From NCBI GenBank assembly GCA_023231475.1, contig JALJEE010002573.1, forward strand, positions 1-39,023: DNA of 39,023 bases. The letters run 5' to 3'. Under the pieces are notes generated by a model. It made no database searches and was not told the DNA's origin. It saw only the letters and a program-made list of their open reading frames with translations. Position numbers and translations under genes: made by a program. The stretch is from Seison nebaliae (taxonomy: Eukaryota). Below are positions 8,886 to 37,930 of the stretch, one piece after another; within the stretch, counting starts at the first letter, position 1; each line of letters opens with the position of its first letter.

Positions 8886-11140
8886 TTATGAGTTCGTTAG
8901 AGAGTAGACTTCACTTATCTCGTTGTTGGTGCTCAACGTAGAATTGGTAGTGACTATGAGTTTGTTGTTGGATTTCATTAAGTTGCTCTGCTCCTTCGTT
9001 TGTTTCATCATCAAATTGATCTTCTTCTGAATGTCCAAGGGAATATTCTCCTTCAAATAATATGACTGCGTTATCGGTTTCCTCGTATTCTCCAACATTC
9101 GGAACCAGTGATCTCTTCCCACTCCTTCGCACTTACTGCCCATGACTACACAACCGATTAACTCGTCGGAACCGATACTGAGAAATAATAAATTTGAATT
9201 TAAGAAATAAATAATATTAATTAACCGATCATAATCGATGACTTTTAATGCAAGTATCGCCTCGTCAACTTGGTCTTGTTGGAGATCGAACATCATTTCT
9301 TCCTCAAATTCCGGATTCAACGTATTCTTCCGCACGGAAGTTCGTTTCTTCTTCAAGCGCTTATTTCCACAATATAACGCCACTTTGACGTATGGATCTA
9401 AATAAGGGAAAATTAATGGAAAACTAATGGAATGGTGGATGAGGTTGATACAAACCTGATTTACCATTAATATCCATCGCTTTCAAATTCCTACAATTAT
9501 GGATGGTAATGGTCAATCGGCCGGCCGACGGTAAATGACATAATGAAATCGATATCTCACCCAATTCTGGGTCTTCCTTCGAAAGTTTAAAAAAAAATTT
9601 AAAAAAAAATTTTAAAAAAATTAATGAAAAAGAAGAGTAACTTCGGCGTGAGGATTGAGATGACGAACAATTTGTTTATTTTTCGTTCGGACATCTGGAG
9701 AGAATACGATCGGCTCCAACTTGATAGCGCCAATGAATTGATGTTTGGCGAAACGGTCGAAGTGATACATTTGGAAGCATAATTGTCTCGTGCCATTAAC
9801 TAGTTCGGGAAATTGAATGTTGTTGAAATAGAACGTCTCCTCGTACACCGGTTCCGTCGTCTTCCTCTTTATTTCCGTTTGGTACTTCTTCTTCTTATCA
9901 GGGAGCATGGAGACGCGGACGAACGTATCGAACTGGGCGAATTGAGAGGAGCGTTGTCGAATGTGGAAATGTTTGAGACGGTGACGGAAACTTTTCCGTT
10001 CGTTCAACCGTTCGATGGAATTCATGGAATTGCTCTTGTTCGTCTGTCGCAGAGTGAGATTGTTGGAGTTGATATTAGGATTATTGTTATTGTTATCGTC
10101 GGAAATCGACATTGATTTTTTTATATCGGTGTCGTTGAGACCGTCGGAATTGAGGACTTGTTTCGGATTCTTTAGATCGTACGCTCTCAACACACAAACG
10201 GCCAATGATTGAATGTCGTCGTTGTAGTTGACGGAAAAGACAAGACGACCAACTCCGTAATTGATGTTGGGGATAGCGGGCATCTTATACAATTCGGGTT
10301 CCAATTTACCCACATCCTCCGGTGTGTACGATGTCTTCCAAGTGGTGAAACGTTGTTTACGACGACGATCGAGAATAGAATTCATCGTTTTCGACGAATG
10401 ATTATTTGAAGGAGTGGAAGAAGAACGTGTATCATTCTCCAATCGCTTCAATAATAATCGTGTGGTATTATCTGAAGGTGATGGCGATGATGACGTAGAT
10501 GACGACGGAACATTCTGATTATTACCATCATTCTTCTCATCACCGTTCATCTCGTTGGCATGATGGTTGTTGTTCGTTGTTTGAGATTGATTAGAGAATT
10601 TATTGTCGTTCTTCTTCATCGCTTGTGTGAGCTGGAGTAGAGAGGAAGTGAGAGAATCCAATGGTTCCGATTCTAATAATTGTTGCTGATATTGGAATTT
10701 CTGTTGTTGTTGTTGTTGTTGTTGTTGATAATGTAATTGTTGATCGTGTGGATGTTGTGGAATCGTTGATGATTGCTGAATCTGATGGTTCGGATGTGTG
10801 GGACCATTGGGATTATTGAGCATTTGATTATTCACGTTGTTATTGTTGTTGTTGTTTGGATGGTTGACGATGGCACTATTTCCGTTTTTGAGACGATTGG
10901 TAGATGTGTCCAATGGCTGATTATTGTCGCCGTTGGAGAGGAGAATGTGCTCCTGCAAATTATTTCCTACGATATTTACACCAGGTATATTCGAATTATT
11001 CGCTGCCGTGGCGATCTTTTGCATAGCTGCGATGCCATTATCACGGAATTTATTCAACGCCGAATTGGTAAATCCACTAATTAGTGGCACGTCACCTAAT
11101 AAGTTGCCGTTCGGCAATTGTTGAGATGAAGAACCGGATA

Positions 11141-11176
<36 letters not shown>

Positions 11177-11285
11177 GCTGTTGTTGTTGCTGCTGCTGGT
11201 GTTGTTGATTTTGCTGCTGGTGTTGTTGTTGTAAATTCTGTTGTGGCATTTGTTGTTGTTGTTGCTGTAGATGTTGTGATTGTGG

Positions 11286-11316
<31 letters not shown>

Positions 11317-11498
11317 AATTGATCTGGTTGTACCATCGACATTTGTTGTAGGTTGTTCGATGGTGGCATCGAATCGAACGTTTCAGCATCGTCATCTTGG
11401 CCACCAATGGTCTTGATAGCGTTTTGGAAGCCTTGTATAAGACCCGTACTCGATCCGGCAATTTTATCCAATTGTCCATTTAATATATTACGAAACAT
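8886..11498 (-). CDS. Synaptotagmin-like tandem C2 protein (Syt3/6/9/10-like), about 813 aa; exons 11498-9642, 9576-9456, 9397-9226, 9177-8886
   Basis: GKLEPELYK motif, C2A ([10 protein letters not shown]...FDRFAKH), spliced C2B ([42 protein letters not shown]...[14 protein letters not shown]...[12 protein letters not shown]...GRDHW). Introns of 65, 58 and 48 nt restore the frame. Upstream exons are not excluded. Confidence 0.9.
11143..11315 (-). repeat. Coding CAA/CAG repeats (polyglutamine) in the synaptotagmin-like N-terminus
   Basis: Long (TTG)n/(CTG)n runs on the + strand; a second run lies at about 10701-10727. Confidence 0.95.
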
Positions 11499-13125
11499 AA
11501 CATCTCACATTCTTTTGTCGAGAGGAAAATATTTAAATTGATCTTCAATCAAAGATGGAAAGAACGACGTCCAGTGGAATTCAGGAGAAAGAAATAAATG
11601 AGGTTACTCGATCGACAATTGGAATGAGTGGAAAATGGTTTAATTTCTTCTGATTAAACAATCGAAAAAGAAAAGTTATGTCGTATATACAACAGAGAAT
11701 TAAATCAATAATCGATTATTCACTCGAGAAAATGATTTAAGTCGAACATTCGAATTTCATCATCGCTTCACCGTTTTCCTTTTTTGACCACTCCACAAAT
11801 ACTACGAATTCATATCGAGCAACAACAATTTTTAATATAATTAATTTATTCGTCTCATTCCCAAATTTTTGAATGTTATGTAGGACTGTAATTAAGAAAA
11901 ATTCTCCTTCTTCTTTCCTTATTCCTATTGTTGGTTCATCTTCATTACTCATATTTCACATCGATCACCTCCTACAACCCTGCCCTCCCTCCTCCTACCC
12001 TCCTCGTCTATTGGCTCTCTCGAACGAGCGAGCGAGCGAGGGGAGAATGGGGAAATTGCATTTTAGCTTCCATAGATCATTACCATACATGTTTGCTCTA
12101 TGTGGCACAAAGACGAAATGACATCAGTATACGTATCGCTTTGTGCCAAGATGACGAAATTGAAGGAGAAAGATAGGCACGGAACTCCTATTTATTTTCA
12201 ATAGCACTTCCTTGTCACTATATGATGCATGTTGAATGCATTCTCTCTTTCTTTCTCTCTCTTTCCCAATCTCTACCACCATCATCACCATCCTAATAAT
12301 TCTTCCAGAATTCTCTTCTTCTCCTCTCACAAATGTGTTACATATTCGCCCCACTGTTTCTCTTGCACATTCTCGAAATATGGAGAATATGTGTCGAGGA
12401 AAAAATGGGAGAAAGGAGAAACGAAATAAAGCACGATATATCATTCACAAGAAATCTTTCTTTAACAAATGGTTTTCTCTATAATAATAAATTAATCTCT
12501 TCATTCGCCCATGTACCTCCATTCGTCCTACTTACACAACAACAACGACGACGACGACAACGACAACGACGACTTCCCCAATAAAAGTCATAATTGTTAG
12601 TTGATGTTGAATATTTATTTCCATTTTATAAGTTTGGGGAGAAATGTTATAAATCAATATTCAAATATAACCAATACTCACATTCGCGCTCTTGTATGAA
12701 ATTCGCTCTCGTACATCGCTGTCGTTGAAGTGAGGAGGAAGGAGAATTTAGTTTTTTTTTCTTTCGATTCTTTCAACCCCGAATGGACGATCTATTTCTT
12801 CTTCATATGAACAACATTATGAATAAGTGGAAAATTGACGTGAGTGTGTATGTGTCGATGTGCACACACGTGTATAGTGCATGTGGGGGGAATAGTCGAA
12901 TGAATTTCTATGCAAGCATTAAATATAAATCATATACGGAAATTACTTCGGGACACATACACGTACACGTACTCGGCACATCAAGAGGAGATTGATGAGA
13001 ACGACGTCGGATTTATCTACAAAATGTCACCATTGATGTAGGGAGGAATTCCGATTACGTACGGAAGATACTTGTACGAGAATAAAAGTAGTCAAAGTAA
13101 TGTCCGATGTTCGGGTAATATTCCA

Positions 13126-13145
13126 TCCATCCATCCATCCTCATC

Positions 13146-15565: not shown

Positions 15566-17584
15566 TCATTTATCTTCATTAGATTTATTCGTTGCCATGA
15601 CAACCACATCCATTCCCATCATTTCAGATCTGATATGAAGTTGATGTTCGTGTGCCAAATGTAAAATGGCGAGAAAAAGTGAATGGGGAGTACAATAAGA
15701 ATTGTGTGTCACATTCTCCATCGAATACTTAGCAAATATGGTTCTCATGTTAATGGGTTGATTCGATTGGAAAAGCTTATGAATGATGGGAAACATATCC
15801 TGATTAATTCGTTTGACGTTAATGCGGTTGGCTTGTTTACGATAATCTAATTTGATTGGAATTGGTTCGAATAACGGTTTCGGTATATCCAATAACGGAA
15901 ACGACGTTGACATATTCATAATCTCATTCGAGTCATTCATGCTAGTCATTTCCGAAACCATCGAATTCTCATTCGAATACATTCCCATTACACATTCAGT
16001 ACTTTCAAATTGTCCATTCAAATTCTCCTGATAATTTATCGGACATTCATCTGAATCTGGAAACGATTCATTTATCCATTCCAATCGATTATCCATTTGA
16101 GGAATTTGAAAAACAGTTTGAAATAAATTTTCCGTTTCCTCACAATTCATTTCCCTATTGTACTGAATGTCGTCCACATTGACATTGACTGTCAATTTCT
16201 TCTTTATTAATCGTTTCCGTTTGGTCCGTGTGCGCAACGGTAGAAGTTTCGACGATTTCTCCTCCATCCAGTCGTCGAGTGATCCGATCGTTTGTTCCTT
16301 ATTTTTTTCCGTTCGTTCAGTTCGATTATTACTCCGTTTAATTTGCACTTTCCTTCTCTTCATTCCCACATATAATCTCTTCAATTTAATATCATCATCA
16401 TCACCACCAAACATATCGTTAGCACACTCGGCTAGGATCTGTTGGATGGAAGTTTGATCGTTGGATAAATTGACGGATGGACAATCGGTGAAATTGATGG
16501 TATTCATATGATTCCGAATGGTGGTATCTCTACTAACGATAGAGAAAGATCGTAAGGAAAAATTTTGAATTTCAAACGAATTTTCATTTTCAAAATAATG
16601 TTCATTGTCAGATGGAATTGATGATAATCGGGAGATGGTCGAACATGAATCCGATTCAATTTCTTTTTCATATAAATAAAAATCATCGACTGTAACATCA
16701 TTTCTTCCCTGAACCACAAACGAATCGATGAGTGAACTGATTGTGAACTGTTTGTGGAGGGGAATACGTCCTGTCAGTTTCTCCAAAACTCCACAATAGA
16801 AATTGAGATAATTATCTTCTTTCTTTTCAGTTCGAATTAGAATTTCAAATAATCGACTCTGATTCAACGCGTCATTACTCATTTCCCTTATATCGTTCAT
16901 GATATCATAATCAGTCACCATCAATATCTTTCCATATAGCAATTTCTTCCATTTACAACTGTATTGAAGTAATCCATTAATGCTACCATAATCGATGGCA
17001 CGTAATTTCCTCATATCGAGAGAGATTGTCGTCATTTCCATCCATCGATTATTTGAAATACGAAGTTTTTTTGAAGGACTCGTAAAAAATTTAAAAGTTT
17101 TTTTCCTTTTTTTCTTCTTCTTCCGATAGACGTCCATCGAATTTTCTCCTTTTTCCTTTTCCACAACACCATTTCCATCATGGTTCGTCGACACACTGTC
17201 TCGACATTTCGCTATGTCACTTTTGACACATTCGAATTTCTTATCAATAATTCTCATCATAGAATCCAATGTCGTTACCGCACTATCGAAATCGATGTGT
17301 CGTTGCCAAACGGAATTTTTAGTTCGTTCGAAAAGTTCTCGATTTTTCATGCTTATCACCTCCGCTCCATATAAAGGAAGTTCGGAGGAATATGCCATAT
17401 TTCTATCGATTTTCCGATTATTCTTAAAATAAGCTACAGTCCAATTGAAAAGATTAGTCAGTTCGGCTACAGTTCTTTCCTCAGTCGGTCTCAACTCCTT
17501 CTCTAAATGAACAGTACATAATTCTTCTCCAGTCTGGAATGAAGGTGCGCTGTAACTACTTCCAGACATGAAGGAACAATCCAT
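15566..17584 (-). CDS. Divergent condensin I kleisin (CAP-H/Barren/Cnd2-like), 672 aa, single exon
   Basis: N-terminal kleisin-like KIDRNMAYSSEL and IDFDSAVTTLDSMMRII (cf. NFQKASCTLDAxVKIY). C-terminal IKLDYRKQANRINVKRI (cf. INYARxAKKVDVKKL) and SLFLAILHLAHEHQLHI (cf. FxxLLHLANExxL). Confidence 0.75.
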   Translation of the reverse strand: MDCSFMSGSSYSAPSFQTGEELCTVHLEKELRPTEERTVAELTNLFNWTVAYFKNNRKIDRNMAYSSELPLYGAEVISMKNRELFERTKNSVWQRHIDFDSAVTTLDSMMRIIDKKFECVKSDIAKCRDSVSTNHDGNGVVEKEKGENSMDVYRKKKKKRKKTFKFFTSPSKKLRISNNRWMEMTTISLDMRKLRAIDYGSINGLLQYSCKWKKLLYGKILMVTDYDIMNDIREMSNDALNQSRLFEILIRTEKKEDNYLNFYCGVLEKLTGRIPLHKQFTISSLIDSFVVQGRNDVTVDDFYLYEKEIESDSCSTISRLSSIPSDNEHYFENENSFEIQNFSLRSFSIVSRDTTIRNHMNTINFTDCPSVNLSNDQTSIQQILAECANDMFGGDDDDIKLKRLYVGMKRRKVQIKRSNNRTERTEKNKEQTIGSLDDWMEEKSSKLLPLRTRTKRKRLIKKKLTVNVNVDDIQYNREMNCEETENLFQTVFQIPQMDNRLEWINESFPDSDECPINYQENLNGQFESTECVMGMYSNENSMVSEMTSMNDSNEIMNMSTSFPLLDIPKPLFEPIPIKLDYRKQANRINVKRINQDMFPIIHKLFQSNQPINMRTIFAKYSMENVTHNSYCTPHSLFLAILHLAHEHQLHIRSEMMGMDVVVMATNKSNEDK

Positions 17585-18040
17585 TTTCTTAGAGCTTAAT
17601 GGAATTTTTTTAAGTTTTAAATTAACAATTTGATGGGGGTAGTTTTTAAAATTTTACGTCTCTCGTCACTGCTCATCAAAATTCGTTTTGAATTTAAAGA
17701 GAAAAAATAGAATTTTTGACAATTATCTAATTTAATTCCTAAGCTTCAAAACAACGTAACAATTGGACATATGGGCAAATTGCTTTAAAAGTTCCCCAAC
17801 GGACAATTAGCACTTCTACATTTGAGCTCAACTTTCAACTGTCTAATCTTACGGGAATATGTTCAGCGAACACTTCTGACTTCAATTCGAAATCGATTAC
17901 AATTCGTCCGTTTTCTTTTTGCGTCTATGAAAGGGAAGGTGCGCGCGACTTTCCTTATATATTCGATTCGTTATTCACAATTCTTCATTATTAGAAAAAA
18001 TAGTATTTCGTTTCTTTAACGTTTAGGTTCGTTTGATTTT

Positions 18041-19111: not shown

Positions 19112-20778
19112 ATGCACTTGGAAGATTTGATAATGCCGGATTTGGTGGACGATTCGGAAGCGATAATAACCGGTTTCCGAAGAGGAAACATATTTCCATC
19201 TTCTTCAACTTATTTACCGAGTGATGGTATAATGCATAATTACGGTTCGATCAATAATGGAGAAGTGAAGAACGAAGGAGAAAAAGATGTTCATATTCGA
19301 TCGAGAACATGTTGGGATACAGATTTTTCACTTTATGCTTTAGACGTCTATAACGATAACGTTAAGAAAACGGTGAAGAGTGTCATGAAATATGATGAAG
19401 TTCAATACGATGACGTTCCCTCGTTATTCAATCGATTCATATATGATATTAATAAGATGAAACGATTAAAATCATTTGATGAAATCCATGAATGGCTCAC
19501 GTCAACGACCTATTTCCAAGAATGTCAAAAATTAAAAAATTTCTCATCCTTCTTAATGAATGATTCGATGTCGTCTGAAATGATCAAACCAACTAAAAAA
19601 GCCATCGTTCTCCTCTACAATATGATTCAGGCAATGGAAATTTTGATAGAGTCGGAAAAATTCGCTACAACTCTCCTCAAAATTAATCAATTATCCGAAA
19701 ATGAACATACTACTCTGCATGAAATGGCGAAATATATTTTGAATTTTAATGACACATTTCAGAAGATCCTGGTGCCGATGACAACTCATAGATTTGAAAT
19801 GGAGAAAATTAATTGTTCTCATGAAAAAGACAAATTATTCGTATTATTAAAAGACTTTCACTTCAAATACGAATTGGCAATCACTGACGAAGTTGAAATA
19901 TTGAAAAATGAAGTTTCTATTTTATTCTTTCACAATTCATTCACCAATCTCTTCTTCACAGTTAGAAGAGAAAGAAAAACTTTTAAAAGAGCTAAAAGGA
20001 AAATCGAAATCGACTAATTCTCATAGTAGTAAATCGGATGGATCAGCTCAAGTTTCAATGACAACACAAACTAAAATAAATTATGTATTTTCCTTATCTT
20101 TCAACTTTTTCTTATAATTATTTGTGGCAGCGGAATGAGATGTTGGGAATTGGAGAGGTGAGGAGTGATATATTGCAAGTTATTGAACATTCCTTAGATT
20201 CGCTTTCGAAAGACATCCTATCACTTCGACAAGACAACAGAGACCATCACGATGTTATTATTTTTATTTAAAAAAATTCGTTTTGAAATATTTTGAACAA
20301 TTTTTCATTTTAAATTGAAATTGTTTTTACTCTTCAAAAAATTTTGCATTTCGAAATTTTTTAATTTGAATATTGAATTTTTTTATTTTTGAAAAATTTT
20401 AATTTTTCAGAAATTTATTGAATCATCTAATTAATTATCTTGTTTAATTATATAATTTTAGAAAATTTATTATTTAACAAACAAGTTGGAAGAGATCGAA
20501 GCGAAGAGTGCAAGACATTTGAACGTTCTCTCGAATTTCTATCGATATTTTTATTTGAAAAACAATTTTAGCATTTTCCGCAAAAAGATAAAGAAAGTTT
20601 GTTTGAGGTGCAAATGGCATGCGAAAGTTTAAACAAGGATATCGAGGAAGAACCGGAACTTATAAAAACAGTTGAAGATCGATTACAGGTGAGAGAAGTT
20701 TAAATTGGCTAAAAATTTTGATTTTTATAGGACGTTCATGAACATTATAGAGAGCTGGAAAGAATCGCTCACGAATAA
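19112..20778 (+). CDS. Uncharacterised helical/coiled-coil protein, about 413-427 aa, 6 exons
   Basis: Exons 19112-19912, 19962-20051 (or -20084), 20131-20253, 20462-20524, 20572-20688 (or -20697), 20731-20778 join in frame, all phase 0. Two donors are ambiguous between GTT and GTA/GTG options. Confidence 0.65.
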
Positions 20779-20796: not shown

Positions 20797-21239
20797 TTAA
20801 ATTTGTGATTTTGTATTGAATTGGAAAATTGTGCGGAGAAGTGTTTGGAAGAAAGTTTTAATAAATTGTTTGACTGATTGTTGTTTGGGTGTTGAATAAA
20901 TTCTTTCATCTTTCACATTTCTTTTTTCGATAATTGGAGGAAGAATGGTTTTATCTCGACGGTTTCTTACCGACGGTCTGGGAGTGCTGATGAGTTGTGG
21001 TTGGAAGTCCATGAAAAATGTGAGTATCTTTTCTTGAGGATAATTGTTGGAGGAGTTTTCTTCATAATTCTCGATAACGGATGATGTGGAGGAGAGATTT
21101 GAATTGGCAATGAAATAATCGTCGTGAATGATATTTAGATAATTGTTGGGAATCATGTTGGAATTGCCTCCTGAAAATCGATGTCCGTATTTTTTATGGA
21201 AGTAAATCGACTGAAGAGATTCGACTACTTTCAATTCGT
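20797..21239 (-). CDS. Possible terminal exon of an unknown gene
   Basis: 145-codon open frame converging on the 19112 gene. A candidate intron 21300-21240 (GTTCAA..ATAAG) joins an upstream open segment in frame, but I found no start codon. Confidence 0.35.
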
Positions 21240-23623: not shown

Positions 23624-25005
23624 ATGCATCAATCGGGAATTCAACGTTCGAATTTTTTTTTAAAGGATTTCCTTCTTAATTCTCTGCTCATTTAGCTGAT
23701 GAGCAACTCCAACAATTTTTGGTGCAATGTAAAGCCAATTCCATTCGTTCCTTCAAAGTCAACATCACCGACAGTTTCATTATTAAATATTCTTCATTCG
23801 AATTGTCGTTTTAGCCGAAATGAAATTGAGTGAAGAACGTCCGATGAAATGTTCGTTCGATGACGATTTCAACGAATGCGTCACGTCAATGATACGGGTG
23901 GGAGAAGGTCCGTGTTACATCTTCTGTCGAATGGACACTGGACAAATGGAGAAGAATTGGCTGTTCATTTCATATATGCCGGAAAAGTCGACAGTTCATA
24001 AAAATTTAAATATTTAAAAAAAAATCGTTTTTTTTTTGAAAATCAGGTGAGAGATAAGATGTTACATGCGTCAAGTAAAGCGACATTAAAGAAAGCATTC
24101 GGACTCAGTCTAATTAATGAGGAATTGAACATTGATAAGAAAGTTTCCATCAATTCTCATCATCATTAATTATCATCGATTATCGATTATGGATAATTTA
24201 GTCAGAATTAACATTAGCTGCTTATAAGAAACATTTACAATCGAAGAATGAACCACGTCCATTGACGGAACGAGAACAACAATTGAATAATATAAATCAC
24301 TCAATTTACAATTGTGGAATGACGGCGAAACGACAGACAATGCAACCGTTAAAATTCCCTTTATCATCCTCCGCCTCCCTTGCCATCGACGACTACAGGA
24401 ATGAGACGGTGAATTATGTGGAATTTGTTCCTTCTTTTTTTCCTGCATCAAAATCATCATTTTATTCAGGAGATCAATATCGAGAAGGAAGTTATCGAAT
24501 TGATTAGGAAGGAGAAGATCGATCCCCATCAAATTCCTGAACATTTACCCGACGATTCTGCTCGATATGTTCTCGTTCGATTTTATCATATTCACGAGAA
24601 ACAAATGCAAAATGCATCCAGTTTCCCATTTCATTCATTCCCTTCCATTTCCTCAATTCTTCCAGTTTTCCTCTATTATATGCCCGGCTACAATTGTCCG
24701 GTGAAACAACGAATGTTATACTCGAGTTGTAAGACGTCCGTCATCGATTATATTCAATCGAAGAATGTTCAAATTGATAGAAAAGTTTCCAATTTAAATA
24801 ATTCAAATTAAATTCAAATTAAATTCAAATTAAATTCAAATTTTCTTTTTCGTATTAGATGGAAGTTAGTGATAAATCGGAATTGACGGCCGACATGTTA
24901 TACAGCGACCTCCATCCACCATCCGAACAAAGTCAACATCCTTCACTTCAAATCCGACGTCCCCAACTCCCAACCATGAATAACAACCGTCGACGACGAG
25001 TTTAA
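23624..25005 (+). CDS. TWF: Twinfilin (two ADF-H domains), 338 aa, 8 exons
   Basis: Exons 23624-23645, 23696-23773, 23815-23993, 24047-24142, 24202-24426, 24470-24620, 24666-24784, 24859-25005. Spliced protein has MHQSGIQ, PCYIFCRMD, WLFISYMP, VRDKMLHASSKATLKKAFG, PLTERE, DSARY, YYMPGYNCPVKQRMLYSSCK, ELTADMLYSDLHP. Confidence 0.96.
24800..24842. repeat. About 4 copies of 11-bp AATTCAAATTA in twinfilin intron 7
   Basis: Direct tandem copies; they explain why this intron (74 nt) is the longest in the gene. Confidence 0.9.
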
Positions 25006-25656: not shown

Positions 25657-28600
25657 CTAGTGAGTGGTTGTGGCGTGTTTGAGGAAGAGTGGTGAACGTT
25701 CGTGAATCTCCTCAACGAAATCATTTCCGTAAACATTACATGTGGAGAGAATGACGGTTTCAACTGATTGATTTTTCTGAAAAAATTAAAAATAAAATTT
25801 TAAAAATAATTTAAAATATTTGAACCAATTTGGCATAAACGAATATTTGTTCGTCAAATAATGTGCATCCATAGAAACTGTAGGAATTGTCTTCGTTACT
25901 CATAACTGGAAGAAGGAATTGGATAGAGAGGAGGAAATAAATCGAACTGGTTAATTGGAGTAGTTGATGGAAGAAATGTTGAGTGAAGAGACTAAAAAAG
26001 AAATTCTCATTAAATCGTTCCGATTGGAGTTGAATAGTCGTGGAATATTCTAATTCATTCCCCACTACTCTCTCATTGAACGTTTCACTATAGATGGAAA
26101 TAAAATGAGAAAAAAAAATGGAAAATGAGAAATGAAAAACTTATCAATAAATTTGGATTGATCGATATACATCGATGGAAAGAAAATGATTGATGATTCG
26201 ATCTGAATTGATTTGGTCACCTAAAAAAATAAAATGAGATGAAAAAAAATAAAAATTAAAATAAACATCCAATTCGAGACAATAAGATATGATGAAATTA
26301 ATACTTTGTTTTCTCAAATATTCGAGTGAGGAACATTTGAGGAGAATATCAATTGTACAATTATCGTTTAATTGTAATGATTCATAATTGAATTGTTCAG
26401 TCATCTAAATAAATAAATTAAAAATAATTTTTTAAGTTATTTAAATTAAGTTTTAACTAATTGATATGGAGATGAATCCAAATTGGATAATTGACGACGA
26501 ATGGCATAAATACGGAAAGTGGAATCGAGTTCTAAATGGAATCGATTCAATAACAATTCTTTCCGTTGCCAATGAAGATGGATTTTCAATCCATATTTCG
26601 TTCCTTTTACATTTCCACATTTTCCCTCAATCACCACATCCGATGTCGATTGAACATCGAACAATAATTGAATTGTCTCATTCTCTTCCAATCTTCTCAA
26701 TTCCTCCAATATTGTTCGAAATTGTTCGATCATCTCTTCTCTCGTCAATGGAATAATATGAAGAGGAGATGATGTGACGTTTAAATCCATTTCTTCCTCT
26801 TTTATTGTTTCTTCCATTTTTTCACATTTCTTCTTTTTCTTCTTCTTCTTTTCTTCATTTAATTTCTTCTTCTTTTTCTTCGTCTTCTTTTTCAATTTCT
26901 CTTCTTCATTCATTCCATTCATTACATCAGATATCGATCGAGGCATTTGAGACATGTCAATTATATCATCATTCTGATCAATATGATTAATCCATTCTTG
27001 AATGGGATTATCAGTCATCTCTTTTTTCTCATCGATTAATTCGTCTTTCTTCTCATCAATTTCACCACGACTACGACAATTACTGTGATTTGATGGCGAT
27101 GTTAAAATGAGATAATCTTGCCGTTTCTTCTCTTCATTATTATTATCTTCTATTAATAAATTTAAATTTTTTTTTTTTTCATTCTTTTTTTTCTTCTTCT
27201 TCTTCTTCTTTTTCATTCCATTATCATTATTGACGAATGTGGATGTTGGAGTTCGATCGATCTCTTTCTCCGATTCCTTCTTGTTAAATTCACTCAAATC
27301 GATTTTTGCCAATGCACGATGTGGATTATATTTACCATGACGATTAATCTCATCACTATCTGAATCGTTATTAATTTCATTTATATTCTTCTCCAAATCG
27401 AATCCTTCCGGCATCTCCTCCTCAGCAATCACTGGCGTTGATGGAACGTTCTCCTCATTAATTATCGCTGATATCGATTCCTGTTTCTCCTGAAAAAAAA
27501 TTAATATTAAAAAAATTGATGGAAATAAAAAAAAACTTCGTTTGATGATTTTTTTTTTGATTTCTCTTTTTTTTTCTTTCGTTTTTTCTCCGATAATTTT
27601 TTTTGAATAAATTCATTCTCTCGATCAATCCGCTCCGATCTCAAATAAACATCTGATGATGTTATTCCAATTGAGGACATGAGAGTGTGTTGTTGATCGC
27701 CATTTGTATTCAATTGAGATGAATTGACATTTTCACCACCAACACCACCACCACCACTACCTCCAATGATGGATGAAAGGAAAATGGAGGATGTAGCCGT
27801 TTCCTCTTTTTTCATCGACGCTATCGATGTTTGAATTGATGACGGTTTTGGTTCAATGGATGAAGTTCGTTCTATCGAATTATTTGAAATTATCGATCGC
27901 TTTTCATTGGTTTTTTTAGTTGGAGGGGATTTGATGTAGAATGGATTATTTTCGATGACTAATTGACGCATTTGTTTCCGTCGTTCTAATTCTTCGGGAG
28001 AAATGTGAATTTTCTCCTTTTCCATTTCCTGCATGACGGTATTGGATGATGAAGGCTTATGACCGAAGAAACTCGTTTGACCTGTCAAATTCGCATCGAG
28101 GAAATCATTTTTCGCTTCAACAAAATAATCGTCGATGGATATCTCTTTTTCCATCGTCTCTTTCAACGGTTCGTCAATCCATTCGTCGAGATCGATACCG
28201 TTTGGAATTGGGACTTTCTTTTGCGCTTTACTCGCCACCGGATTCAACGGTGATTCGAAAAGATATTTTAATTCATTCAACAACTCTTGTAACATTTCGT
28301 CAATATTATTTATTTTTTTTGAATTTTCTTCATTTTCAATTCCATTCGAATTATCATTAATTATTGATGAGGTAACGGTTTGATTTGGTGATGAATCATT
28401 ATCAATTAATTTCGTCCATCGTTTCAAGAGGACTTGAATGATTTTATCATAAGTATAAGCACGTTCCTGAATTTGAAGATGATCATGTTGTTCATATGAT
28501 TGGAAGAAATGTTGAACGTCTCTTAATAATTTCAATTTTTCATCGAACGATAATTTGACTGATTGACATTCTTCATTTATCAAATATCCAAGTATTTTTA

Positions 28601-30413
28601 ATGTTGAATGAATGGAAATATAAATAGCTTTATCTGATAATGACAAATTTCGAATTCTCATCAAACTTTCCAACACACTAACACCATCAATCAGGTATTG
28701 ACAATACTCACCACAAATCCAAGCGGCCGCCGATAAAATCTCTTTACATGAACTTTGTCTTTGTGTGGACATTCCCGTTTTAACTTTCATGGAAAATAAC
28801 GACGACGAATTGGACGGTGAACGATTAATTTTCTGTTGTTGTTGATGTTGTTGGTCGTCATGATCGGAATTTGTATCAGTTGAATTTGGATCGATATCGA
28901 CAATAAGATGCATATTGAGTAGAAGTAACGCCATTTGTTGAACGGCGAATTGTCGAACACTTTGAACACGAACACAAACATTTAGTAATTGATCGGCAAA
29001 TAAATCGGAATGAGAATAATGACGAGAACCGAATTGGGAAATATTTGACATCTTTGTCAAATCACTCGATACCTGATCGATGAATGATGATGGTATTGTT
29101 CCCGAATCTAATTCGATCAATTCTAAAATGATACTAATATACCATTCGAAATTCTTCACATTCTTATAATTATTAGCGGAACATAAATTGATGATTTTCA
29201 CGATGATTTCATGACGGAAAAATGGTGTTGCTTTCGAATAAACATTCAACATGAGACATTTCGTTATTTCCATCAAACCGATCTGATCGACGAGATCGGC
29301 GAAAATGTCCAATGCTCTCAATCGAATCGATTCATCGTTATCTTGAAGACATTTGATGATAATTGAACGACGTGAACTGAGACTTTGTGGATAACTTTTC
29401 ATAATTCTACTTAATGCTAATAATCCCAAATATTTCAAATTTTGATCACTATCTTGAACGAGTACTAACAATTTCTGAACACATAATTGTATCGCTGGTT
29501 CTGGTGAGGCCAAATCATTGGATAACGATAATAGAACGGCAATTACCGTATTAACACATTCGTACAATAATGACATAGCTGATGTACTTTGAATGATGGA
29601 AGTGAGTGGTTCGATCAATTTCTTTCCCAAACGAGGTTCGAGTGGTGTGAGAACTCCGAACAATTTGATAATTTTAATCAACATCCAATTATTGGAACTG
29701 GTGCCCATCAATCGAAAGAAGGTGGGTGCTAACGGTAAATAATTATTTGGATTCTTTCTTGCTAATTCACAAATAACATGTACCGTTGCTGCTTGAACTC
29801 CTTGATCCGTATCATCTAAACGTTCTTTCAATCGACCGAATGTCGTTTTTAACGCTTCCGGATATCGGAGGAAAACACCGTACATAGTGAGAACGGCCTT
29901 CTTCCTTAAATACGCTTTCGACGACGACATAAGAGTGGTGAGATCGTTGAGGAGATCATGAGCGATATTCTCGTCCATAAAACATGAGACACCAGATAAA
30001 GCAACACTACAATCATAAATGTTTCGACTACAAATATCTTTCTTCAATTGATTAGTAGTGAGGAGGAGGACGTCAGTGTCTGAACGGAATGTCTGTGACG
30101 CTGCCATATATCCGATACGTTTATAAATGAATTTAGAGGAACTCATCACTTCGATGATATTGAACGCTGCCCAACTAATGTCGTAACCTAACATCTGAAT
30201 ATACACCAATTTATTAATGGCGTTCGCTTTCACACTCATCTCGTTTATCTTCAATTCACTTTTTATCTCTTCCACACATTGCATGATGTAATTACTCTCG
30301 TCGTCCTTATGGTTACGGATGCCACGTACGAGATCGAGGAGACTCTTGTCAAACACTCGATCTAACGTGTGTTTAGCTTTCCGCAAACGCTCACTCACTT
30401 CCATTGCTGCCAT
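25657..30413 (-). CDS. AP3D1: AP-3 complex subunit delta, about 1502 aa, 6 exons
   Basis: FDKSLLDLVRGIRNHK, QMLGYDISWAAFNIIEVMSS, NNWMLIKIIKLFGVLTPLEPRLGKKL, DSDQNLKYLGL, LNPVASKAQKKVPIPNGIDLDEWI, EEMPEG, PHRAL. Exons 30413-27537, 27489-26458, 26404-26267, 26220-26141, 26087-25826, 25776-25657 total 4509 nt in frame. The 3' exons are less certain. Confidence 0.95.
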
Positions 30414-31069
30414 ACTCGATGTCTATCAGTGCAATGGATCGACTGATGCTGCACACTCACGTCTTCAAATAAATCAATCAAAATATTTCATGAAAATAAA
30501 AAAAAAATAATAATATAAATAAATCATTAAATTTGAGATCGGGGTTATTAAATAGTTTATTTGAATTTGCCTTTATGAAATTATCTCATTAAAAACTCTA
30601 GCAAACAATTAGAAGAAGAATAAGAAGAAGAAGAAGAAGAATAATTAGAATAATAATTTGAAATGATGGAAAAAAATTCCTTTTCCTATCAATTCGTCTT
30701 TTTCTCTTGTTGGAATTTATTCTTATTTTTTTTTGTCTCTGACATATACCCTTATCAATTATTTACTATTATTGCTCCAACATCCACTGTTGTTGTTGGC
30801 TCGTTCGAATGAGACGAAGTGTTCAACCAATACTCATCCTTCACTTCTTCCATCTTAATTCAACTTTATTTTATTATTCACATCAAATTATGTAATAAAT
30901 CCGATCCTCTTCATATTTTCCTCACCGCCTACTTACTTCAACTCACATGCATCAGCACACGCAACCATACGTCAAACATTTATATGTTCAGTTTGGTTGA
31001 AGTGTCCTGTTAGTGTCCTCCACACTCTCCTACTCTATCTGTGAGTTTGTGTGTTTTTCTGTGTTTTTG

Positions 31070-32001: not shown

Positions 32002-32581
32002 CAATTTAATTCGTTACCTGTTGATGGTTTCATTATTTCTCTATTTATTCTTCTGATGGAAAATAGATGATATTGAAAGATCTCATCAAACACTTTTACT
32101 GCCAAAACGGGAAGAGATGTTTTAAATATGATTGTAAGTGAAGGAGAAGTGAATAAAGTGTTTGTCTAACGAGTTTGTACAATTTGGACATTAGGCGAGA
32201 GGAAGGAAGAAATAAAATGAATATTTTTAAAAGAAAAGAATTATCTGCGACTAACTGGTGTCTGACAAAGGTTCGATCTTCAGCTAAACACCATATTCAA
32301 CAACTACTAGTGAGTTGAGGGTAAAGAGAAAATTTTCACTTCAGTTTCTTTTCTCATTTTTGATTTCATTTTAATTTCATTATATAACTCGATATTTGAC
32401 AACAATTCTCTAATTTCCCGCCTAATTCACGAGCAGTTTATTCCTCTCAATTTCAGTTTATCTTCATCATCATCGGAAACGTCTCTTATTGTTGTTGGTG
32501 AATGAAAGCGAAATAATTTTATGGAAATAAAATTTACTCGAAATTTAATTTAAATCCATCAGAAACACCCAATAAACCATC

Positions 32582-35500
32582 ATGAAATGTTGGACGAGTG
32601 AAAGTCTCTTGAAATTATCCCTCTCACTTCTCATGATGATGGTGATGGTTTGTTGTGATAATGATCATTTGACCGTCAACCAGATCTTGGAGAGAGGTTA
32701 TATTCATTCGAGGAATAATACGAAATTTCATGATAATTTACTTCGATCTTATGAGAATTTAATTGTTATTTATAAAATCGGTAAAACGGATATTGGCCGT
32801 GATATATTCGGATATGCCATCGGATTTGATGTTACTGAAAGAATCGAAGCGGTTGAACCGTACGGTTTCCGAATAAAATCCATCAACACTCATAAGGAAC
32901 AATTCAATCAATTGTTTCAGGTTGCCATGACGATGGATTTCTTCACAGGCCAAATCTTCACTTCGTTGATGCTCTACAGTTTTATGGTGGATCTGATGAA
33001 TCAATTGAAGATGAAGAGAAGTGAAATCATTCGTCGCGGTCTCATCATTCACATCGTACCCAATCATAGCATCGATCAATTGGAGCATGAATTTGTCACA
33101 AATAAGTGTCCAGTGAACATGCCGCAAAATAATCCATTAACGGGAACGAACATCACTCGAAATATGTTGCCGAGAAAGAAGTTTCTAACCAACAAAAATA
33201 TCAGTGACATAGTAAAGACGTTCGGAATGAAACGGAATGAGAAAATTGCCGTCGTTCAATGGCTTATCTCGTACGATTGGGATTTGTTCTTTTCCATCAA
33301 TTCTCATAAAAACGGTATTTATCTTCCGACGAATATGAATGAAATTAATTCGAAAAGAAAACAAATTTATGATGTGATCAATAAAGAGTTGTTAAAATCC
33401 GTTTCATCAACCAAATGTCAATGGAGAGTGTATAATGATGAATTCGTCGATTTTATGAGTAACTATACTGACACTTATTCATTTCAATTAGGAATCGATT
33501 GTTGTCCAACTATAAACCGATCAACATTCTTCGATAAATGGACGTCGAACGTCCGTCCATTATTTTATCGTTTACTCAATTTGAAATTACCTGGAATTTC
33601 GGGATATATTCTATCCAGAGATTATACCGGTGTCTCGTCCATCGGTCAAACGGAATTAGTGGACAGTAAACTAAAAATAACGGACGGAACTGTCACCAAT
33701 GAATTCCGTACGAAATTTAACGGTTATTTCATGATCAGTTGGCCGAATACGTCGACAAGTATAAAAGTCGTTCCAATCCATCCGAAATTCCATGCGACTC
33801 CATTGACCATTAAATTACGTCCCAATAATTACATGTTCAACATTTCCATGTACGAGGACGGAACATATCCGACAAATATCGATCCGTTAATTGTGACGGA
33901 TACCAAACCGAAATTACAACCATTAATCGATATTTTAGGAGAGATATCGTTCGACACTCGAATGTTTCTCAAGAAATTGTTAAAAGAAAATAATTATCGA
34001 ATAAATACAACAAATCATGAGAATATGGTGAAATATTTGAAGAAAGTGAACGATCAATATCCTCATATCACTTCACTTTATTCCATCGGTCAGAGTGTGC
34101 AGAAGAGGGAATTGTACGTGTTAATTGTGAGTAAAGAACCGGAGAAACATATTTTAAAGAAACCCGAATTTAAATATATCGCTAATATGCATGGCGATGA
34201 GATCGTAGGACGAGAGTCACTTTTGGATCTCATCGACATTCTCGTCTCCAATTACGAGACGTCGAACGAGATACGAGATTTGGTAGACAATGTTCGCATT
34301 CACATTATGCCATCGATGAATCCTGACGGTCATGAATTACATCAACGAGAGAATGCGAATCATGTGGATTTAAATCGAAATTTTCCTGATTATCATTTCG
34401 ATTTACAGAAGAAATCACAACCGACAATGGAACCGGAAGTCAATCATGTCATTGATTGGTTGAAAAGAGTACCCTTCGTCTTGTCTGCCAATTTACATGG
34501 AGGCGCTTTAGTGGCCAATTATCCATTTGATGCTTATGATGAGAATCATAACAATAAGTCGCCAGATGATGATTTATTCCAAGAGTTAGCAAGTAGTTAT
34601 TCACGAATGATGAGTGAAATGTACAAAGGAGATAAATGTCCTAATGAATATTTCAAGGGAGGAATTACTAACGGTGCCAAATGGTACCAGTTGTTTGGTG
34701 GTATGCAAGATTATAATTATTTCAATACAGATTGTCTCGAACTCACCATCGAAATGAGTTGTATCAAATGGCCGAATTTGAATCGATTGACAACTCTCGT
34801 ACAGGAACAGAGATTATCTCTCATCAGTTTTATGACGAAAGTTTTTGGAGGAATCAAAGGAACCGTTCGAGATAAGAACACCAATTCTTTCATCACCAAT
34901 GCCACCATATCAATCGATGGTAACGATCATGTCGTCCATAGTACGGTGTATGGCGATTTCTTCCGCTTGTTACCATCGACAGAAGAGGAAATTGTTATTA
35001 CATGCTCCCATCCTAATTACATTCCCATTTCCGTCAAACTTCGACCACATAAAACATATGCGAAAGTCATTCAATTTAAACTTATTCCCATCGTGAATAA
35101 TATGACGATGAATAATCATTTCACTAAATACCATCAATGGCAACAATTATCACCACCGTTGTGGCTCATCGTTCTCATTCTAATGTTCCTCCTCATCGTC
35201 TTGTCAACGACTATGTTGAAATTAGTTCATCGTAATCGCAATCTTCCTCAAACCACTAATTGTCTCAATTCATGTTGTTGTTGGTGTTGTTTGTGGAAGT
35301 GGCGTAAATCGAACGAGGACAATCCATATCAGAAAGTTAAATATGAAAAATTGGGAACGGGAGTCATTATCGATCACAATCATGACAACGATATGGTAGA
35401 GAGTAGTGACAACGAAGAGAGAAATGAAGAAAACATGTCCAATACCATCCAAGAATCGTTCAAGAACCATCTGAATAAGTTCAAGAAGAAATATTACGGG

Positions 35501-35611
35501 AAGAAGAAGAATGTTGGAAATGGATTGGATCCATACCAAAATATTTCGAGTTCGCGCTTAAGCTCACACGGCTCATCGGATGATGAGGAAACTCAAATTT
35601 TTGTTCGTTAA
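32582..35611 (+). CDS. CPD: Carboxypeptidase D-like M14B metallocarboxypeptidase, type I membrane protein, 1009 aa, single exon
   Basis: Signal peptide; a degenerate first CP domain; an intact second domain (PEFKYIANMHGDE, MPSMNPDG, RENANHVDLNRNFP, LSANLHGG, GGITNGAKWY, GGMQDYNY, ELTIEMSC, GIKGTV, GDFFRLL); TM WLIVLILMFLLIVL; Cys cluster; YQKV/YEKL motifs and an acidic tail. Confidence 0.9.
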   Translation: MKCWTSESLLKLSLSLLMMMVMVCCDNDHLTVNQILERGYIHSRNNTKFHDNLLRSYENLIVIYKIGKTDIGRDIFGYAIGFDVTERIEAVEPYGFRIKSINTHKEQFNQLFQVAMTMDFFTGQIFTSLMLYSFMVDLMNQLKMKRSEIIRRGLIIHIVPNHSIDQLEHEFVTNKCPVNMPQNNPLTGTNITRNMLPRKKFLTNKNISDIVKTFGMKRNEKIAVVQWLISYDWDLFFSINSHKNGIYLPTNMNEINSKRKQIYDVINKELLKSVSSTKCQWRVYNDEFVDFMSNYTDTYSFQLGIDCCPTINRSTFFDKWTSNVRPLFYRLLNLKLPGISGYILSRDYTGVSSIGQTELVDSKLKITDGTVTNEFRTKFNGYFMISWPNTSTSIKVVPIHPKFHATPLTIKLRPNNYMFNISMYEDGTYPTNIDPLIVTDTKPKLQPLIDILGEISFDTRMFLKKLLKENNYRINTTNHENMVKYLKKVNDQYPHITSLYSIGQSVQKRELYVLIVSKEPEKHILKKPEFKYIANMHGDEIVGRESLLDLIDILVSNYETSNEIRDLVDNVRIHIMPSMNPDGHELHQRENANHVDLNRNFPDYHFDLQKKSQPTMEPEVNHVIDWLKRVPFVLSANLHGGALVANYPFDAYDENHNNKSPDDDLFQELASSYSRMMSEMYKGDKCPNEYFKGGITNGAKWYQLFGGMQDYNYFNTDCLELTIEMSCIKWPNLNRLTTLVQEQRLSLISFMTKVFGGIKGTVRDKNTNSFITNATISIDGNDHVVHSTVYGDFFRLLPSTEEEIVITCSHPNYIPISVKLRPHKTYAKVIQFKLIPIVNNMTMNNHFTKYHQWQQLSPPLWLIVLILMFLLIVLSTTMLKLVHRNRNLPQTTNCLNSCCCWCCLWKWRKSNEDNPYQKVKYEKLGTGVIIDHNHDNDMVESSDNEERNEENMSNTIQESFKNHLNKFKKKYYGKKKNVGNGLDPYQNISSSRLSSHGSSDDEETQIFVR

Positions 35612-36405
35612 CCAAACAAATGATTTATGACAAATTATTTCCATTATATTTTCAAATGTCCAGTAATAATACGAATCATCACCACCATCATCATCATCAT
35701 GTTGACGTAATTTTCAAATCTTTGTCATTCTTCTCCTTCAGTCCGAAACGACCACTATTGGCCATTGGAAATAGCTGATTGTGAGTTGGATTGGGGCGAA
35801 GGTAAATGTGAAAAATATCATTCTCAAAATAATTCTTTCGAATAATTCAAAATAATTTAAACTCTCCATCATTGTTTACTCATCTGTCATGTCTTTCTCT
35901 TTTCAACCTTCTCCGTCTTCGAAAGAACGATTCGTTAAACAAACATATTTGACGGAGGGAAGATTCAAAAAAAAAATTTCTTATTTCATGAAGAAGAAAC
36001 CTGAAAATGAAATATTAATTTTTTTGTCGATTTGGATTCAATTAAATTGAGCAACGATTCCTTCAAAGAGTATATGCAAAATTATTTTCTCGTCAATCCA
36101 ATTCATTTTTTCCCCAATTTTTTTCCTCGATTTTTTCCTGAATACTCTTCACATTTCCATCGCTTCGAAGATTGAATGATAAAGTACTTTTCTTTCATCA
36201 CATATATACATTTGTTAAATCAAATTTCATTTACATTCCTTTTCTCATAATTTCTTTTATTATCATCATTATCATCGAGAAATAAATACGAATAAAACTA
36301 TATTCTTTCCCTAACTATTCGACGATGTGTGACGGAAAGTTTTTCGGAAAAACTTGTCCCGAGAACATCTGAGAGAGAGAAAGAGAAAGAGAGAGAGACA
36401 TCAGG

Positions 36406-37930
36406 ATGGATTGGAATACTTTCAATATTTGTTCGCCGGATCGACGTCAATTTAAATTTACAATTTACGATACTAACGAATGTAACGAAGACTCGAAAGG
36501 AGTCGTTCGACATTATCCGAAATATGAGGAAATTGATAAAGTTTTCACGAATCTTCAATGAATTGACAATTTGAATTTCGATTTAGGATGACGTGCAAAT
36601 TTTTGATGGTTTGTTTTGTGGATTGACGAGTCGTCTCAATTTCATTCTAACTGATAACGAGACGGAATCGACCCAGAATAGTTTGACCATTTTCGAATCA
36701 AGCGGTCGATGTGCCGTTTCTAAGGAGATTAATCGATTGGTCTACACTCTCCATGCCATCGACGATCATTCACATCCCGACGACGAACAATTGTCGATGG
36801 ACGTGGTGGAAATATTCAACTTCCTCCAACGAATTTCGAACCAATTCAGGAATTTAGACGAATTATTCGATATCACATTGCCATTTATTAACAACGAATA
36901 TGAAGTCGACGTATCGAGAGTAGTGAAATCGCAAGTTTGATAATTCAAATTTCGAATTAAATTGTCTTTTTTTTATTGTTCGGAAGGAATTGGTGAAGTT
37001 TGAAGAATTATCAAATATTTTCAAAATGGATCTCGGTCAAATTTATTTGTCCTTTTTCATTTTGGATAATAAAGAGAATGTTCAAATTTATAATGACGTA
37101 CATGAAAGTAAATTGGAGGAACGAATGGCAGCCGTCTACTATTGGAAAAAGAGAAGGTTCTTCAAGTTTTCTTTCCCACCAACATTTTCCATTAGTTGAA
37201 ATGATTTGAAAAATATTTAGTGAATTGTTGAAAAGGAATGAAAAGATTTCCGATCGTCTACCTAAACGGATGGAAATCTTCACGTTCAATCATCCCTCCA
37301 CGTCATTGAACCATTTCCAATATCTGACGATTTGTTGTAATCGATATGTCGTCATTCTCCAACTAATGATCGACGATGAGAGAATGGAAGAGAATGTGAA
37401 ACTTTTGACGAATTTGGTTTCGACTCATTTCTCATAATTTCTCACCATTTCCACGTTCTCTTCAGTGGCTACATAGTTTGAACATTTTCGGAAAATTGGA
37501 TTTGTTATATCATCAAATTAATGACGATAATGAAAGTAATTCAACGATTTTTGATATGTCTCTCAACTCCACCAATTCCGGAAATAACATTCAATTTTTT
37601 ATTATCGAAGATAGATGTCGAATTAAAGGTTTTCACTCCATTTATCGTTTTAACACACATTCGATAAATGAATTTTTAAGGTTCCTGCATCTTTTTCGGA
37701 AATGATACGAACGAAGAAAAATTGTTCATAAAGAGATGTTGGAAATCTTACAAGAAACTTCGCTACAATTTGACAAAAATAAAATTTTTACGATTTCGCA
37801 TTTTGAAGTTTCGTTTTATTTATTTCTCTTTTTCATTGTTCTCCTCCCTCCTAGAGTTGATTATGCATTAATTCAAATCAAAAATGTGAAGGATCAATTA
37901 TTCATCACCTCTTTCACTTCAGTCCTATGA
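36406..37930 (+). CDS. HPS4/CCZ1-family longin-domain protein (putative), about 404 aa, 7 exons
   Basis: Exons 36406-36540, 36587-36934, 36987-37156, 37221-37416, 37466-37628, 37681-37807, 37855-37930 total 1215 nt in frame. N-terminus FTIYDT...GVVRHYP...IFDGLFCGL resembles the first longin domain of HPS4 (FFLYDG...GICYFYP...LLCGQIAGV). The gene model is stronger than the family call. Confidence 0.55.

What the first reader, a model, noticed from the sequence alone, without database searches (positions are those of the whole stretch)
8886..37930. Window-wide non-standard 5' splice site: introns begin GTT(Y), not GTRAGT
Seen: donors of the 21 introns in four unrelated genes on both strands. 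Twinfilin: GTTCGA, GTTTCA, GTTCAT, GTTTCC, GTTCCT, GTTTCC, GTTTCC. Synaptotagmin-like: GTTACT, GTTTGT, GTTAAT. AP3D: GTTTTT, GTTAAA, GTTTAT, GTTTTT, GTTCAA. HPS4-like: GTTTTC, GTTTGA, GTTCTT, GTTTCG, GTTTTC, GTTTCG. That is +3 T in 21/21, +4 pyrimidine in 18/21, +5 G in 3/21 and exon -1 G in 6/21. The 19112 gene adds three clear GTT donors; possible exceptions are GTAAAT (7286), GTATTT (20085) and GTGAGA (20689). Known: typical metazoan U2-type donors are AG|GTRAGT, read by the U1 5' end (ACUUACCUG) and then the U6 ACAGAGA box; +3 is normally a purine. AT-richness alone would favour A as much as T at +3. Inference: this lineage has rewired donor recognition, through a variant U1 or U6, altered U1-C/Luc7/Prp8 contacts, or U1-independent intron definition. 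I cannot say whether this has been reported for the organism.
Basis: partly seen in the sequence, partly recalled or inferred. Interest (0 to 1): 0.92.

Follow-up and report, generated by a model that had tools for sequence, protein, structure and literature searches.

The report
Rewritten splice donors in a rotifer
In this stretch of the genome of the rotifer Seison nebaliae, nearly all predicted introns start with GTT instead of the GTA or GTG usual in animals and barely match the standard U1 RNA, so this animal likely picks its splice sites by a changed rule, as the amoeba Entamoeba does.

Summary
The window is a Seison nebaliae contig. Ten junctions are fixed by homology; six more match NCBI's model. 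With seven further introns, 25 of 28 start GTT in the worst case. Four twinfilin introns sit at positions shared with other eukaryotes, whose donors there are GTT in 0 of 14, so old introns were rewritten. Canonical U1 pairs in register no better with these donors than with nearby decoy GTs. Corrections: the introns are 52% T, so part of the +3 T is composition (p 3e-5 to 0.09, by null and set), +4 pyrimidine is background, and 'HPS4-like' is unverified. No spliced reads, genome or snRNA could be examined. A published BUSCO table lists METTL16 as missing in Seison alone of 25 species. Closest known: Entamoeba GUUUGU with a coevolved U1; Seison lacks its +5G/+6U. No paper on this was found. The scan noted similar GTT donors before in a protist (Bonamia, unchecked). 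Verdict: new variant of a known kind; mechanism open.

The parts
23624..25005 (+). Twinfilin gene (NCBI SNEBB_002745), 8 exons, 338 aa
23646..23695 (+). Twinfilin intron 1, AAC|GTTCGA, 50 nt
23774..23814 (+). Twinfilin intron 2, ACA|GTTTCA, 41 nt; position shared with 4 other eukaryote loci
23994..24046 (+). Twinfilin intron 3, ACA|GTTCAT, 53 nt; a diverged second copy matches through GTT
24143..24201 (+). Twinfilin intron 4, AAA|GTTTCC, 59 nt; position shared with 2 loci
24427..24469 (+). Twinfilin intron 5, TTT|GTTCCT, 43 nt
24621..24665 (+). Twinfilin intron 6, CCA|GTTTCC, 45 nt, in frame without stop; position shared with 5 loci
24785..24858 (+). Twinfilin intron 7, AAA|GTTTCC, 74 nt; position shared with 3 loci; second copy reads GTTTTG
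9577..9641 (-). Synaptotagmin-like intron 1, GAA|GTTACT, 65 nt
   Evidence: linker length between the C2 domains
9398..9455 (-). Synaptotagmin-like intron 2, CAG|GTTTGT, 58 nt; homology rejects the canonical-looking ATG|GTAAAT 9 nt upstream
9178..9225 (-). Synaptotagmin-like intron 3, TCG|GTTAAT, 48 nt, equal to a 16-residue gap against synaptotagmin 3
27490..27536 (-). AP3D intron 1, GAA|GTTTTT, 47 nt
   Evidence: frame and composition
26405..26457 (-). AP3D intron 2, TTA|GTTAAA, 53 nt
26221..26266 (-). AP3D intron 3, GAT|GTTTAT, 46 nt
26088..26140 (-). AP3D intron 4, TAA|GTTTTT, 53 nt; rival donor GTATAT 26170 not excluded
25764..25825 (-). AP3D intron 5, TTG|GTTCAA, 62 nt; next best donor is also GTT
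36541..36586 (+). SNEBB_002748 intron 1, AAA|GTTTTC
   Evidence: NCBI model
36935..36986 (+). SNEBB_002748 intron 2, CAA|GTTTGA
37157..37220 (+). SNEBB_002748 intron 3, AAG|GTTCTT; a second NCBI isoform uses CAA|GTTTTC at 37166
37417..37465 (+). SNEBB_002748 intron 4, TTG|GTTTCG
37629..37680 (+). SNEBB_002748 intron 5, AAG|GTTTTC
37808..37854 (+). SNEBB_002748 intron 6, GAA|GTTTCG
19913..19961 (+). Gene 19112 predicted intron 1, GAA|GTTTCT
   Evidence: no homology
20085..20130 (+). Gene 19112 predicted intron 2, TAT|GTATTT, probable exception
20254..20461 (+). Gene 19112 predicted intron 3, GAT|GTTATT, 208 nt
20525..20571 (+). Gene 19112 predicted intron 4, AAC|GTTCTC
20689..20730 (+). Gene 19112 predicted intron 5, CAG|GTGAGA (42 nt) or GAA|GTTTAA at 20698 (33 nt), unresolved
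7232..7286 (-). Predicted intron of an unidentified membrane-protein gene, TCG|GTAAAT, probable exception
   Evidence: no homology
7056..7117 (-). Second predicted intron of the same gene; the three best donors (7117, 7114, 7111) all start GTT

Best explanation
These are short (41-74 nt, one of 208), U-rich GT-AG introns of Seison nebaliae, several at ancestral positions, whose start signal has shrunk to about AR|GUU, and they are likely chosen with little help from U1 base-pairing. Shown: the sequence pattern, the shared intron positions, the weak computed match to canonical U1. Inferred: the major spliceosome defines each intron by its short length, its G-poor U-rich body and its UUYAG end, and takes the GU at the edge of that tract. 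Inferred: loss of METTL16 left A43 unmethylated and removed the usual advantage of A at +4.
For: In-register duplex energy with the canonical U1 arm is positive for 18 of 28 donors, is no better than 74 nearby decoy GTs (p=0.47), and 17 of 28 introns have a stronger decoy within -60..+40; 26 control donors from other eukaryotes bind far better (-6.2 against -2.4 kcal/mol, any register, p=8e-7). +4, +6 and beyond carry about 0.1 bit or less above intron background, +5 0.28 bit. Exon -2 is A in 18 of 28 (p=0.001) and -1 a purine in 22 of 28 (p=0.005). No G at +12..+18 in 196 letters against 5% background (noticed after the fact). Two or three donors still look canonical, which a re-coded U1 would fit poorly. 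METTL16 is Missing in Seison and present in the other 24 syndermatans, one of them fragmented (PMC12256650 supplement). METTL16 loss shifts use towards +4U and stronger U5 pairing, and +3 faces U6 G44 (PMC11732430; PMC10581693). The same U6-pairing idea was proposed for Entamoeba GUUUGU.
Against: No U1, U5 or U6 sequence and no U1 protein was seen. With free register the real donors bind canonical U1 slightly better than decoys (p=0.034). BUSCO misses 356 of 954 genes in Seison, so one Missing call is weak. METTL16 loss explains +4, not +3: in yeasts +3 varied little, and here +4 is only at background, not enriched for U. SNRNP27 is complete. A G44.U wobble predicts that C at +3 would be tolerated, yet it is 0 of 28. 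The one published +3U lineage found has a re-coded U1. The energies ignore pseudouridines and proteins.
Confidence: 0.45

Rival explanations
1. U1 coevolved, as in Entamoeba: its 5' arm carries A opposite +3 (and perhaps +4, and U opposite -1), so GUU donors are read by ordinary Watson-Crick pairing.
For: Direct precedent: Entamoeba U1 AACAAAC pairs with GUUUGU, and Mastigamoeba has a third variant (bioRxiv 2022.06.08.495308). +3 T is the only fixed intron base beyond GT, with no C. Conserved as GTT at both donors visible in a diverged second copy.
Against: Entamoeba donors are 88-90% one hexamer; here the commonest hexamer occurs 3 times in 21 and GTTTGT in 1 of 25. Most lineages with atypical donors kept a standard U1. 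Two or three canonical-looking donors remain.
Confidence: 0.3
2. Relaxation only: selection on +3 to +6 has vanished and +3 simply follows the U-rich intron body; no factor prefers U at +3.
For: Intron bodies are 52% T; GT inside introns is followed by T in 18 of 23 cases; against that rate 25 of 28 gives p=0.09 and a Fisher test p=0.24.
Against: Against the better-sampled P(T|T)=0.61 (685 cases) p=1e-3 for 25 of 28 and 4e-4 for the 16 best-fixed introns; a per-intron model expects 16.8 of 28. No other position from +4 to +20 reaches 25 of 28 T (maximum 21).
Confidence: 0.17
3. U1 binds one base out of register (GTT-NN-GT), as noted by this scan in some protists.
For: A +1 shift turns +3 into the invariant U; the lead came from unchecked scan notes.
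Against: GTTNNGT occurs in 1 of 25 GTT donors, +6 G in 2 of 25, purine at +4 in 5 of 25.
Confidence: 0.03
4. Artefact or newly inserted introns: the junctions were chosen to fit the motif, or the introns come from one mobile element with a GTT end.
For: No spliced read was seen; 12 of 28 introns rest on frame and composition only; one 39-kb contig.
Against: Motif-blind homology recovers 7 of 7 twinfilin junctions and rejects a canonical-looking neighbour in the synaptotagmin-like gene. Four of seven twinfilin introns share column and phase with other eukaryotes. The intron bodies show no common sequence on inspection. The same aligner returns GTT at 1 of 26 GT donors in control loci.
Confidence: 0.05

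Closest known systems
Entamoeba GUUUGU donors with coevolved U1 (Roy and Bowser, bioRxiv 2022.06.08.495308; seen: abstract, introduction, section 12, part 2 of 3 of results)
   Same: U at +3 and often +4 in place of AA; short, AU-rich GT-AG introns; host-bound, gene-reduced lineage.
   Different: Entamoeba is 88-90% GUUUGU with +5G and +6U kept and few introns; Seison has +5 G in 4 of 28, a degenerate +4..+6, multi-intron genes, and is an animal. Its U1 is unknown.
+4U donors of yeasts that lost METTL16 or SNRNP27K (Parker et al. 2023, PMC10581693; seen: abstract, sections 5 and 6, passages)
   Same: Loss of A at +4 together with an apparent loss of METTL16.
   Different: Yeasts keep the preferred bases at +3 and +5 and have a positive +4U preference; Seison has lost both, shows +4 at background and retains SNRNP27.
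Non-canonical introns of the tunicate Fritillaria borealis (PMC13326754; seen: abstract, sections 25 and 29)
   Same: An animal whose donors do not match U1, with reduced m6A on U6.
   Different: Those introns are about 95% non-GT-AG, G-rich after +2, with duplicated U2AF and METTL16 present; Seison keeps GT-AG ends and is U-rich.
[quoted passage not shown]
   Same: Invariant GU, A at exon -2.

Membership tests
U2-type spliceosomal introns | GT-AG ends that restore a conserved reading frame | tested here: met
   28 of 28 by construction; independently 10 by homology
U2-type spliceosomal introns | Positions shared with introns of other eukaryotes | tested here: met
   4 of 7 twinfilin introns
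U2-type spliceosomal introns | Pyrimidine-rich 3' end with YAG | tested here: met
   -3 pyrimidine 25 of 28; T at -4 and -5 in 19 of 28 each
U2-type spliceosomal introns | Recognisable branch-point motif | tested here: inconclusive
   CTRAY 1 of 28, YTNAY 23 of 28, neither above shuffles
U2-type spliceosomal introns | Removal from RNA at these junctions | not testable with these tools
   No RNA holder listed; runs laid behaved as DNA
Canonical animal donor (AG|GURAGU) | Purine at +3, A at +4, G at +5, stable pairing to U1 | tested here: not met
   +3 purine 3, +4 A 6, +5 G 4 of 28; no in-register advantage over decoys
Entamoeba-type transformed donor | U at +3 | tested here: met
   25 of 28
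Entamoeba-type transformed donor | Near-invariant GUUUGU | tested here: not met
   1 of 25 GTT donors
Entamoeba-type transformed donor | U1 5' arm changed to match | not testable with these tools
   No genome held; no snRNA in the window
METTL16-loss (+4U) type | METTL16 absent | tested here: inconclusive
   BUSCO Missing in a published table, but 37% of BUSCOs are missing; no sequence search of my own
METTL16-loss (+4U) type | Preference for U at +4 | tested here: inconclusive
   T 15 of 28, equal to intron background
Shifted-register (+1) U1 sites | GTTRAGT or GTTNNGT layout | tested here: not met
   1 of 25
U12-type introns | RTATCCTT donor (motif recalled) | tested here: not met
   None among the 28 donors printed

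The most novel reading that the evidence does not exclude
Seison nebaliae is an animal with ordinary GT-AG, multi-intron genes whose major spliceosome no longer reads the 5' splice site by U1 base-pairing: U1 is lost or reduced to a protein platform, METTL16 is gone, and donors are set by intron length, a G-free U tract, U5 and unmethylated U6.
Probability: 0.25. Interest if true: 0.92.

Novelty: new variant of a known kind. Interest (0 to 1): 0.74.

Why it matters
The purine at +3 and the G at +5 are the most stable features of animal donors, and they are explained by pairing to U1 and U6. An animal in which ancestral introns lost both shows how far donor recognition can be rewired while GT-AG ends stay. 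It gives a natural test of two open questions: whether snRNAs coevolve with splice signals (shown for Entamoeba, denied for yeasts), and whether loss of U6 m6A reshapes donors in an animal. A public genome, transcriptome and small-RNA data are reported for the species, so the first tests are computational. It also means that gene finders trained on other animals may misplace Seison exons and inflate its reported gene losses (inference).

Tried and rejected
RNA evidence: no RNA holder listed; of four runs laid on twinfilin, three covered the introns without joints and one laid nothing; only this one gene was laid. Whole genome not held, so no genome-wide logo, snRNA search or protein survey. 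Rfam found nothing in the window. AP3D C-terminal homology gave no signal for any of 44 models. 'HPS4-like' could not be confirmed: no Pfam hit at E<=1, self hit only, Atlas unavailable. No U1-specific protein is among the BUSCO rows searched. Supplement searches of PMC10125929 and PMC12690905 gave no intron or METTL16 data; PMC10245619 had no matching passage on donors. Shifted U1 register rejected. Branch-point motifs not above shuffles. Control set: 20 of 80 loci screened, 10 aligned; L048 dropped as a near copy of L062, L069 because its two calls were adjacent GC artefacts, and three GC donors left out; L051 and L052 are doubtful but kept; the organisms are unidentified and none is known to be a rotifer. 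An open reading frame near 20797-21240 (-) could not be built into a gene. Searches failed on the machine side.
Full report
Identity. A twinfilin exon retrieved NCBI protein SNEBB_002745 of Seison nebaliae on a contig of 39,023 bases, the length of the window; SNEBB_002748 lies on the same contig. Seison is an epizoic rotifer with a compact 44-Mb assembly of 31.9% GC and two reported lineages (PMC8351084, passages). No whole genome was held, so everything below rests on one contig.

Are the introns real? Twinfilin: the NCBI protein maps to seven introns, each with one GT-AG solution. Independently of that model, each junction is the top scorer among all frame-keeping GT/GC..AG alternatives (3 to 44 candidates per junction) against a profile of 94 non-Seison twinfilins, by 8.5 to 30.6 bits. 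A spliced aligner with no donor matrix, given either of two foreign twinfilins, returns the same seven introns. Synaptotagmin-like: intron 3 equals a 16-residue gap against synaptotagmin 3; at intron 2 the match [12 protein letters not shown] to AMDLTGFSDPYV selects GTTTGT and rejects ATG|GTAAAT nine bases upstream; intron 1 fits the linker length. The six introns of SNEBB_002748 reproduce the NCBI protein; a second NCBI isoform uses another donor nine bases on, also GTT, and isoforms suggest, but do not show, transcript support. AP3D's five introns and seven in two unidentified genes rest on frame and a motif-blind composition model; homology failed. Low-depth contigs about 85-90% alike lie only on twinfilin exons, differ silently at 29 of 39 places, and stop at splice sites; the two that reach a donor match through GTT and GTTT. 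They may be the second lineage or a paralogue. No spliced RNA was seen.

Is it more than chance? Counting all 28 introns against the claim gives 25 GTT, 2 GTA, 1 GTG. The right null is not AT-richness: intron bodies are 52% T, 29% A, 14% C, 5% G. With P(T|T)=0.61, p is 3.4e-5 (21 of 21), 4e-4 (16 best fixed) or 1.1e-3 (25 of 28); with the thinly sampled P(T|GT) of about 0.77 it is 0.0045, 0.016 and 0.09. So a positive preference for U at +3 is probable, not proven, whereas the loss of the canonical signal is plain: purine +3 in 3, A +4 in 6, G +5 in 4, G -1 in 9 of 28. In twinfilin genes of eight other, unidentified eukaryote loci the same aligner gave A 21, G 4, T 1 at +3, G at +5 in 14 and G at -1 in 19 of 26 GT donors (rows dropped are listed under Tried and rejected). 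Four of Seison's seven twinfilin introns share alignment column and phase with these loci, where 0 of 14 donors are GTT: the introns are old and their donors were rewritten.

What is left of the signal? Above local background: exon -2 A (0.51 bit), -1 purine (0.21), GT, +3 T (0.54), a weak C/G excess at +5 (0.28), about 0.1 bit or less elsewhere. The 3' ends are ordinary TTYAG-like, without an enriched branch motif. Canonical U1 (arm as quoted in the finding, two 5' letters recalled) forms no stable in-register duplex with 18 of 28 donors and does not prefer real donors to decoys (p=0.47); in free register there is a slight preference (p=0.034), still far below control donors. Thirteen of 28 introns have another GTT within the 60 upstream exon bases, so GTT alone cannot define the site; length (41-74 nt in 27 of 28) and the G-poor U tract must contribute (inference).

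Machinery. In the BUSCO table of PMC12256650 (supplement rows) I saw 27 splicing-related rows for Seison, not a full list: 22 complete (PRP8, PRP6, PRP31, SF3B1, SNRNP27, ZMAT2 and others), 1 fragmented, 4 missing (METTL16, SNRNP40, SPF45, ZMAT5). METTL16 is missing in Seison alone of 25 species. Since 356 of 954 BUSCOs are missing in Seison, this is a lead. No U1-specific protein is in the rows searched. METTL16 methylates U6 A43, which faces +4; its loss favours +4U and sites with stronger U5 pairing, and +3 faces G44 (PMC11732430; PMC10581693). That fits the lost A at +4 and the A-rich exon end, but not by itself the U at +3; the G44.U wobble is my inference, following the proposal made for Entamoeba.

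Comparison and novelty. Entamoeba has GUUUGU, called unprecedented at two sites, with a matching U1 and a normal U6. Seison works like it at +3 but fails the defining near-invariant hexamer. Fritillaria is an animal with donors that do not match U1 and with low U6 m6A, but its introns are not GT-AG. Searches for Seison with splice site and U1 snRNA, or with intron and spliceosome, gave 0 papers; (17 of 20 papers naming the species since 2021 listed, titles and abstract starts seen) showed none on this. The library lacks most subscription papers, and pan-eukaryote intron surveys may hold a Seison logo in figures or supplements that I could not see; the closed supplement of bioRxiv 2024.08.22.609214 lists RNA-binding proteins for Seison (passages). 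Other papers seen: PMC10125929 (passages, one supplement row), PMC12690905 (passages, blank supplement search), PMC10245619 (term search only). I recall, without a call, that short introns of nematodes and bdelloids have a sizeable minority of GTT donors; the state in Seison's relatives is untested and could lower the novelty. The scan's own unchecked notes report GTT donors in Bonamia and shifted-register GTT classes in protists; none concerns Seison.

Verdict. A real, probably genome-wide change of the 5' splice site in an animal, seen in 28 introns of one contig without RNA confirmation. Best mechanism: low-information donors with little U1 pairing (0.45); coevolved U1 (0.30); relaxation with composition only (0.17). 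New variant of a known kind; interest 0.74.

Noticed in passing
window 3829-6303 (-): 824-codon open frame with a Piwi domain, no intron.
   Followed up: no
window 32576-35611 (+): Intronless M14 carboxypeptidase with about 480 residues of unrecognised sequence before the peptidase domain.
   Followed up: no
window 27537-30422 (-), 15566-17653 (-), 1715-3040 (+): Very long exons (AP3D first exon about 2.9 kb; a 695-codon frame without Pfam match; a weakly cyclin-like 441-codon frame) beside genes that keep many tiny ancestral introns: patchy intron loss.
   Followed up: no
window 80-1015 (+): Reverse-transcriptase fragment (RVT_1) at the contig end.
   Followed up: no
window 14787 (-): An open frame piece upstream of the synaptotagmin-like gene ends in CAG|GTAAAT, read by eye; if it is the donor of a long intron, long introns may keep canonical donors. 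Unverified.
   Followed up: no
introns, positions +12 to +18: No G in 196 letters across 28 introns against 5% in intron bodies, as if competing GU and AG were purged near the donor; noticed after the fact.
   Followed up: partly
window 24786-24851: An 11-base tandem unit in twinfilin intron 7 also matches several other contigs of the same runs.
   Followed up: no
window 9621-11504 (-): The synaptotagmin-like protein has about 500 residues rich in Q and N runs before its first C2 domain.
   Followed up: no
   Followed up: partly
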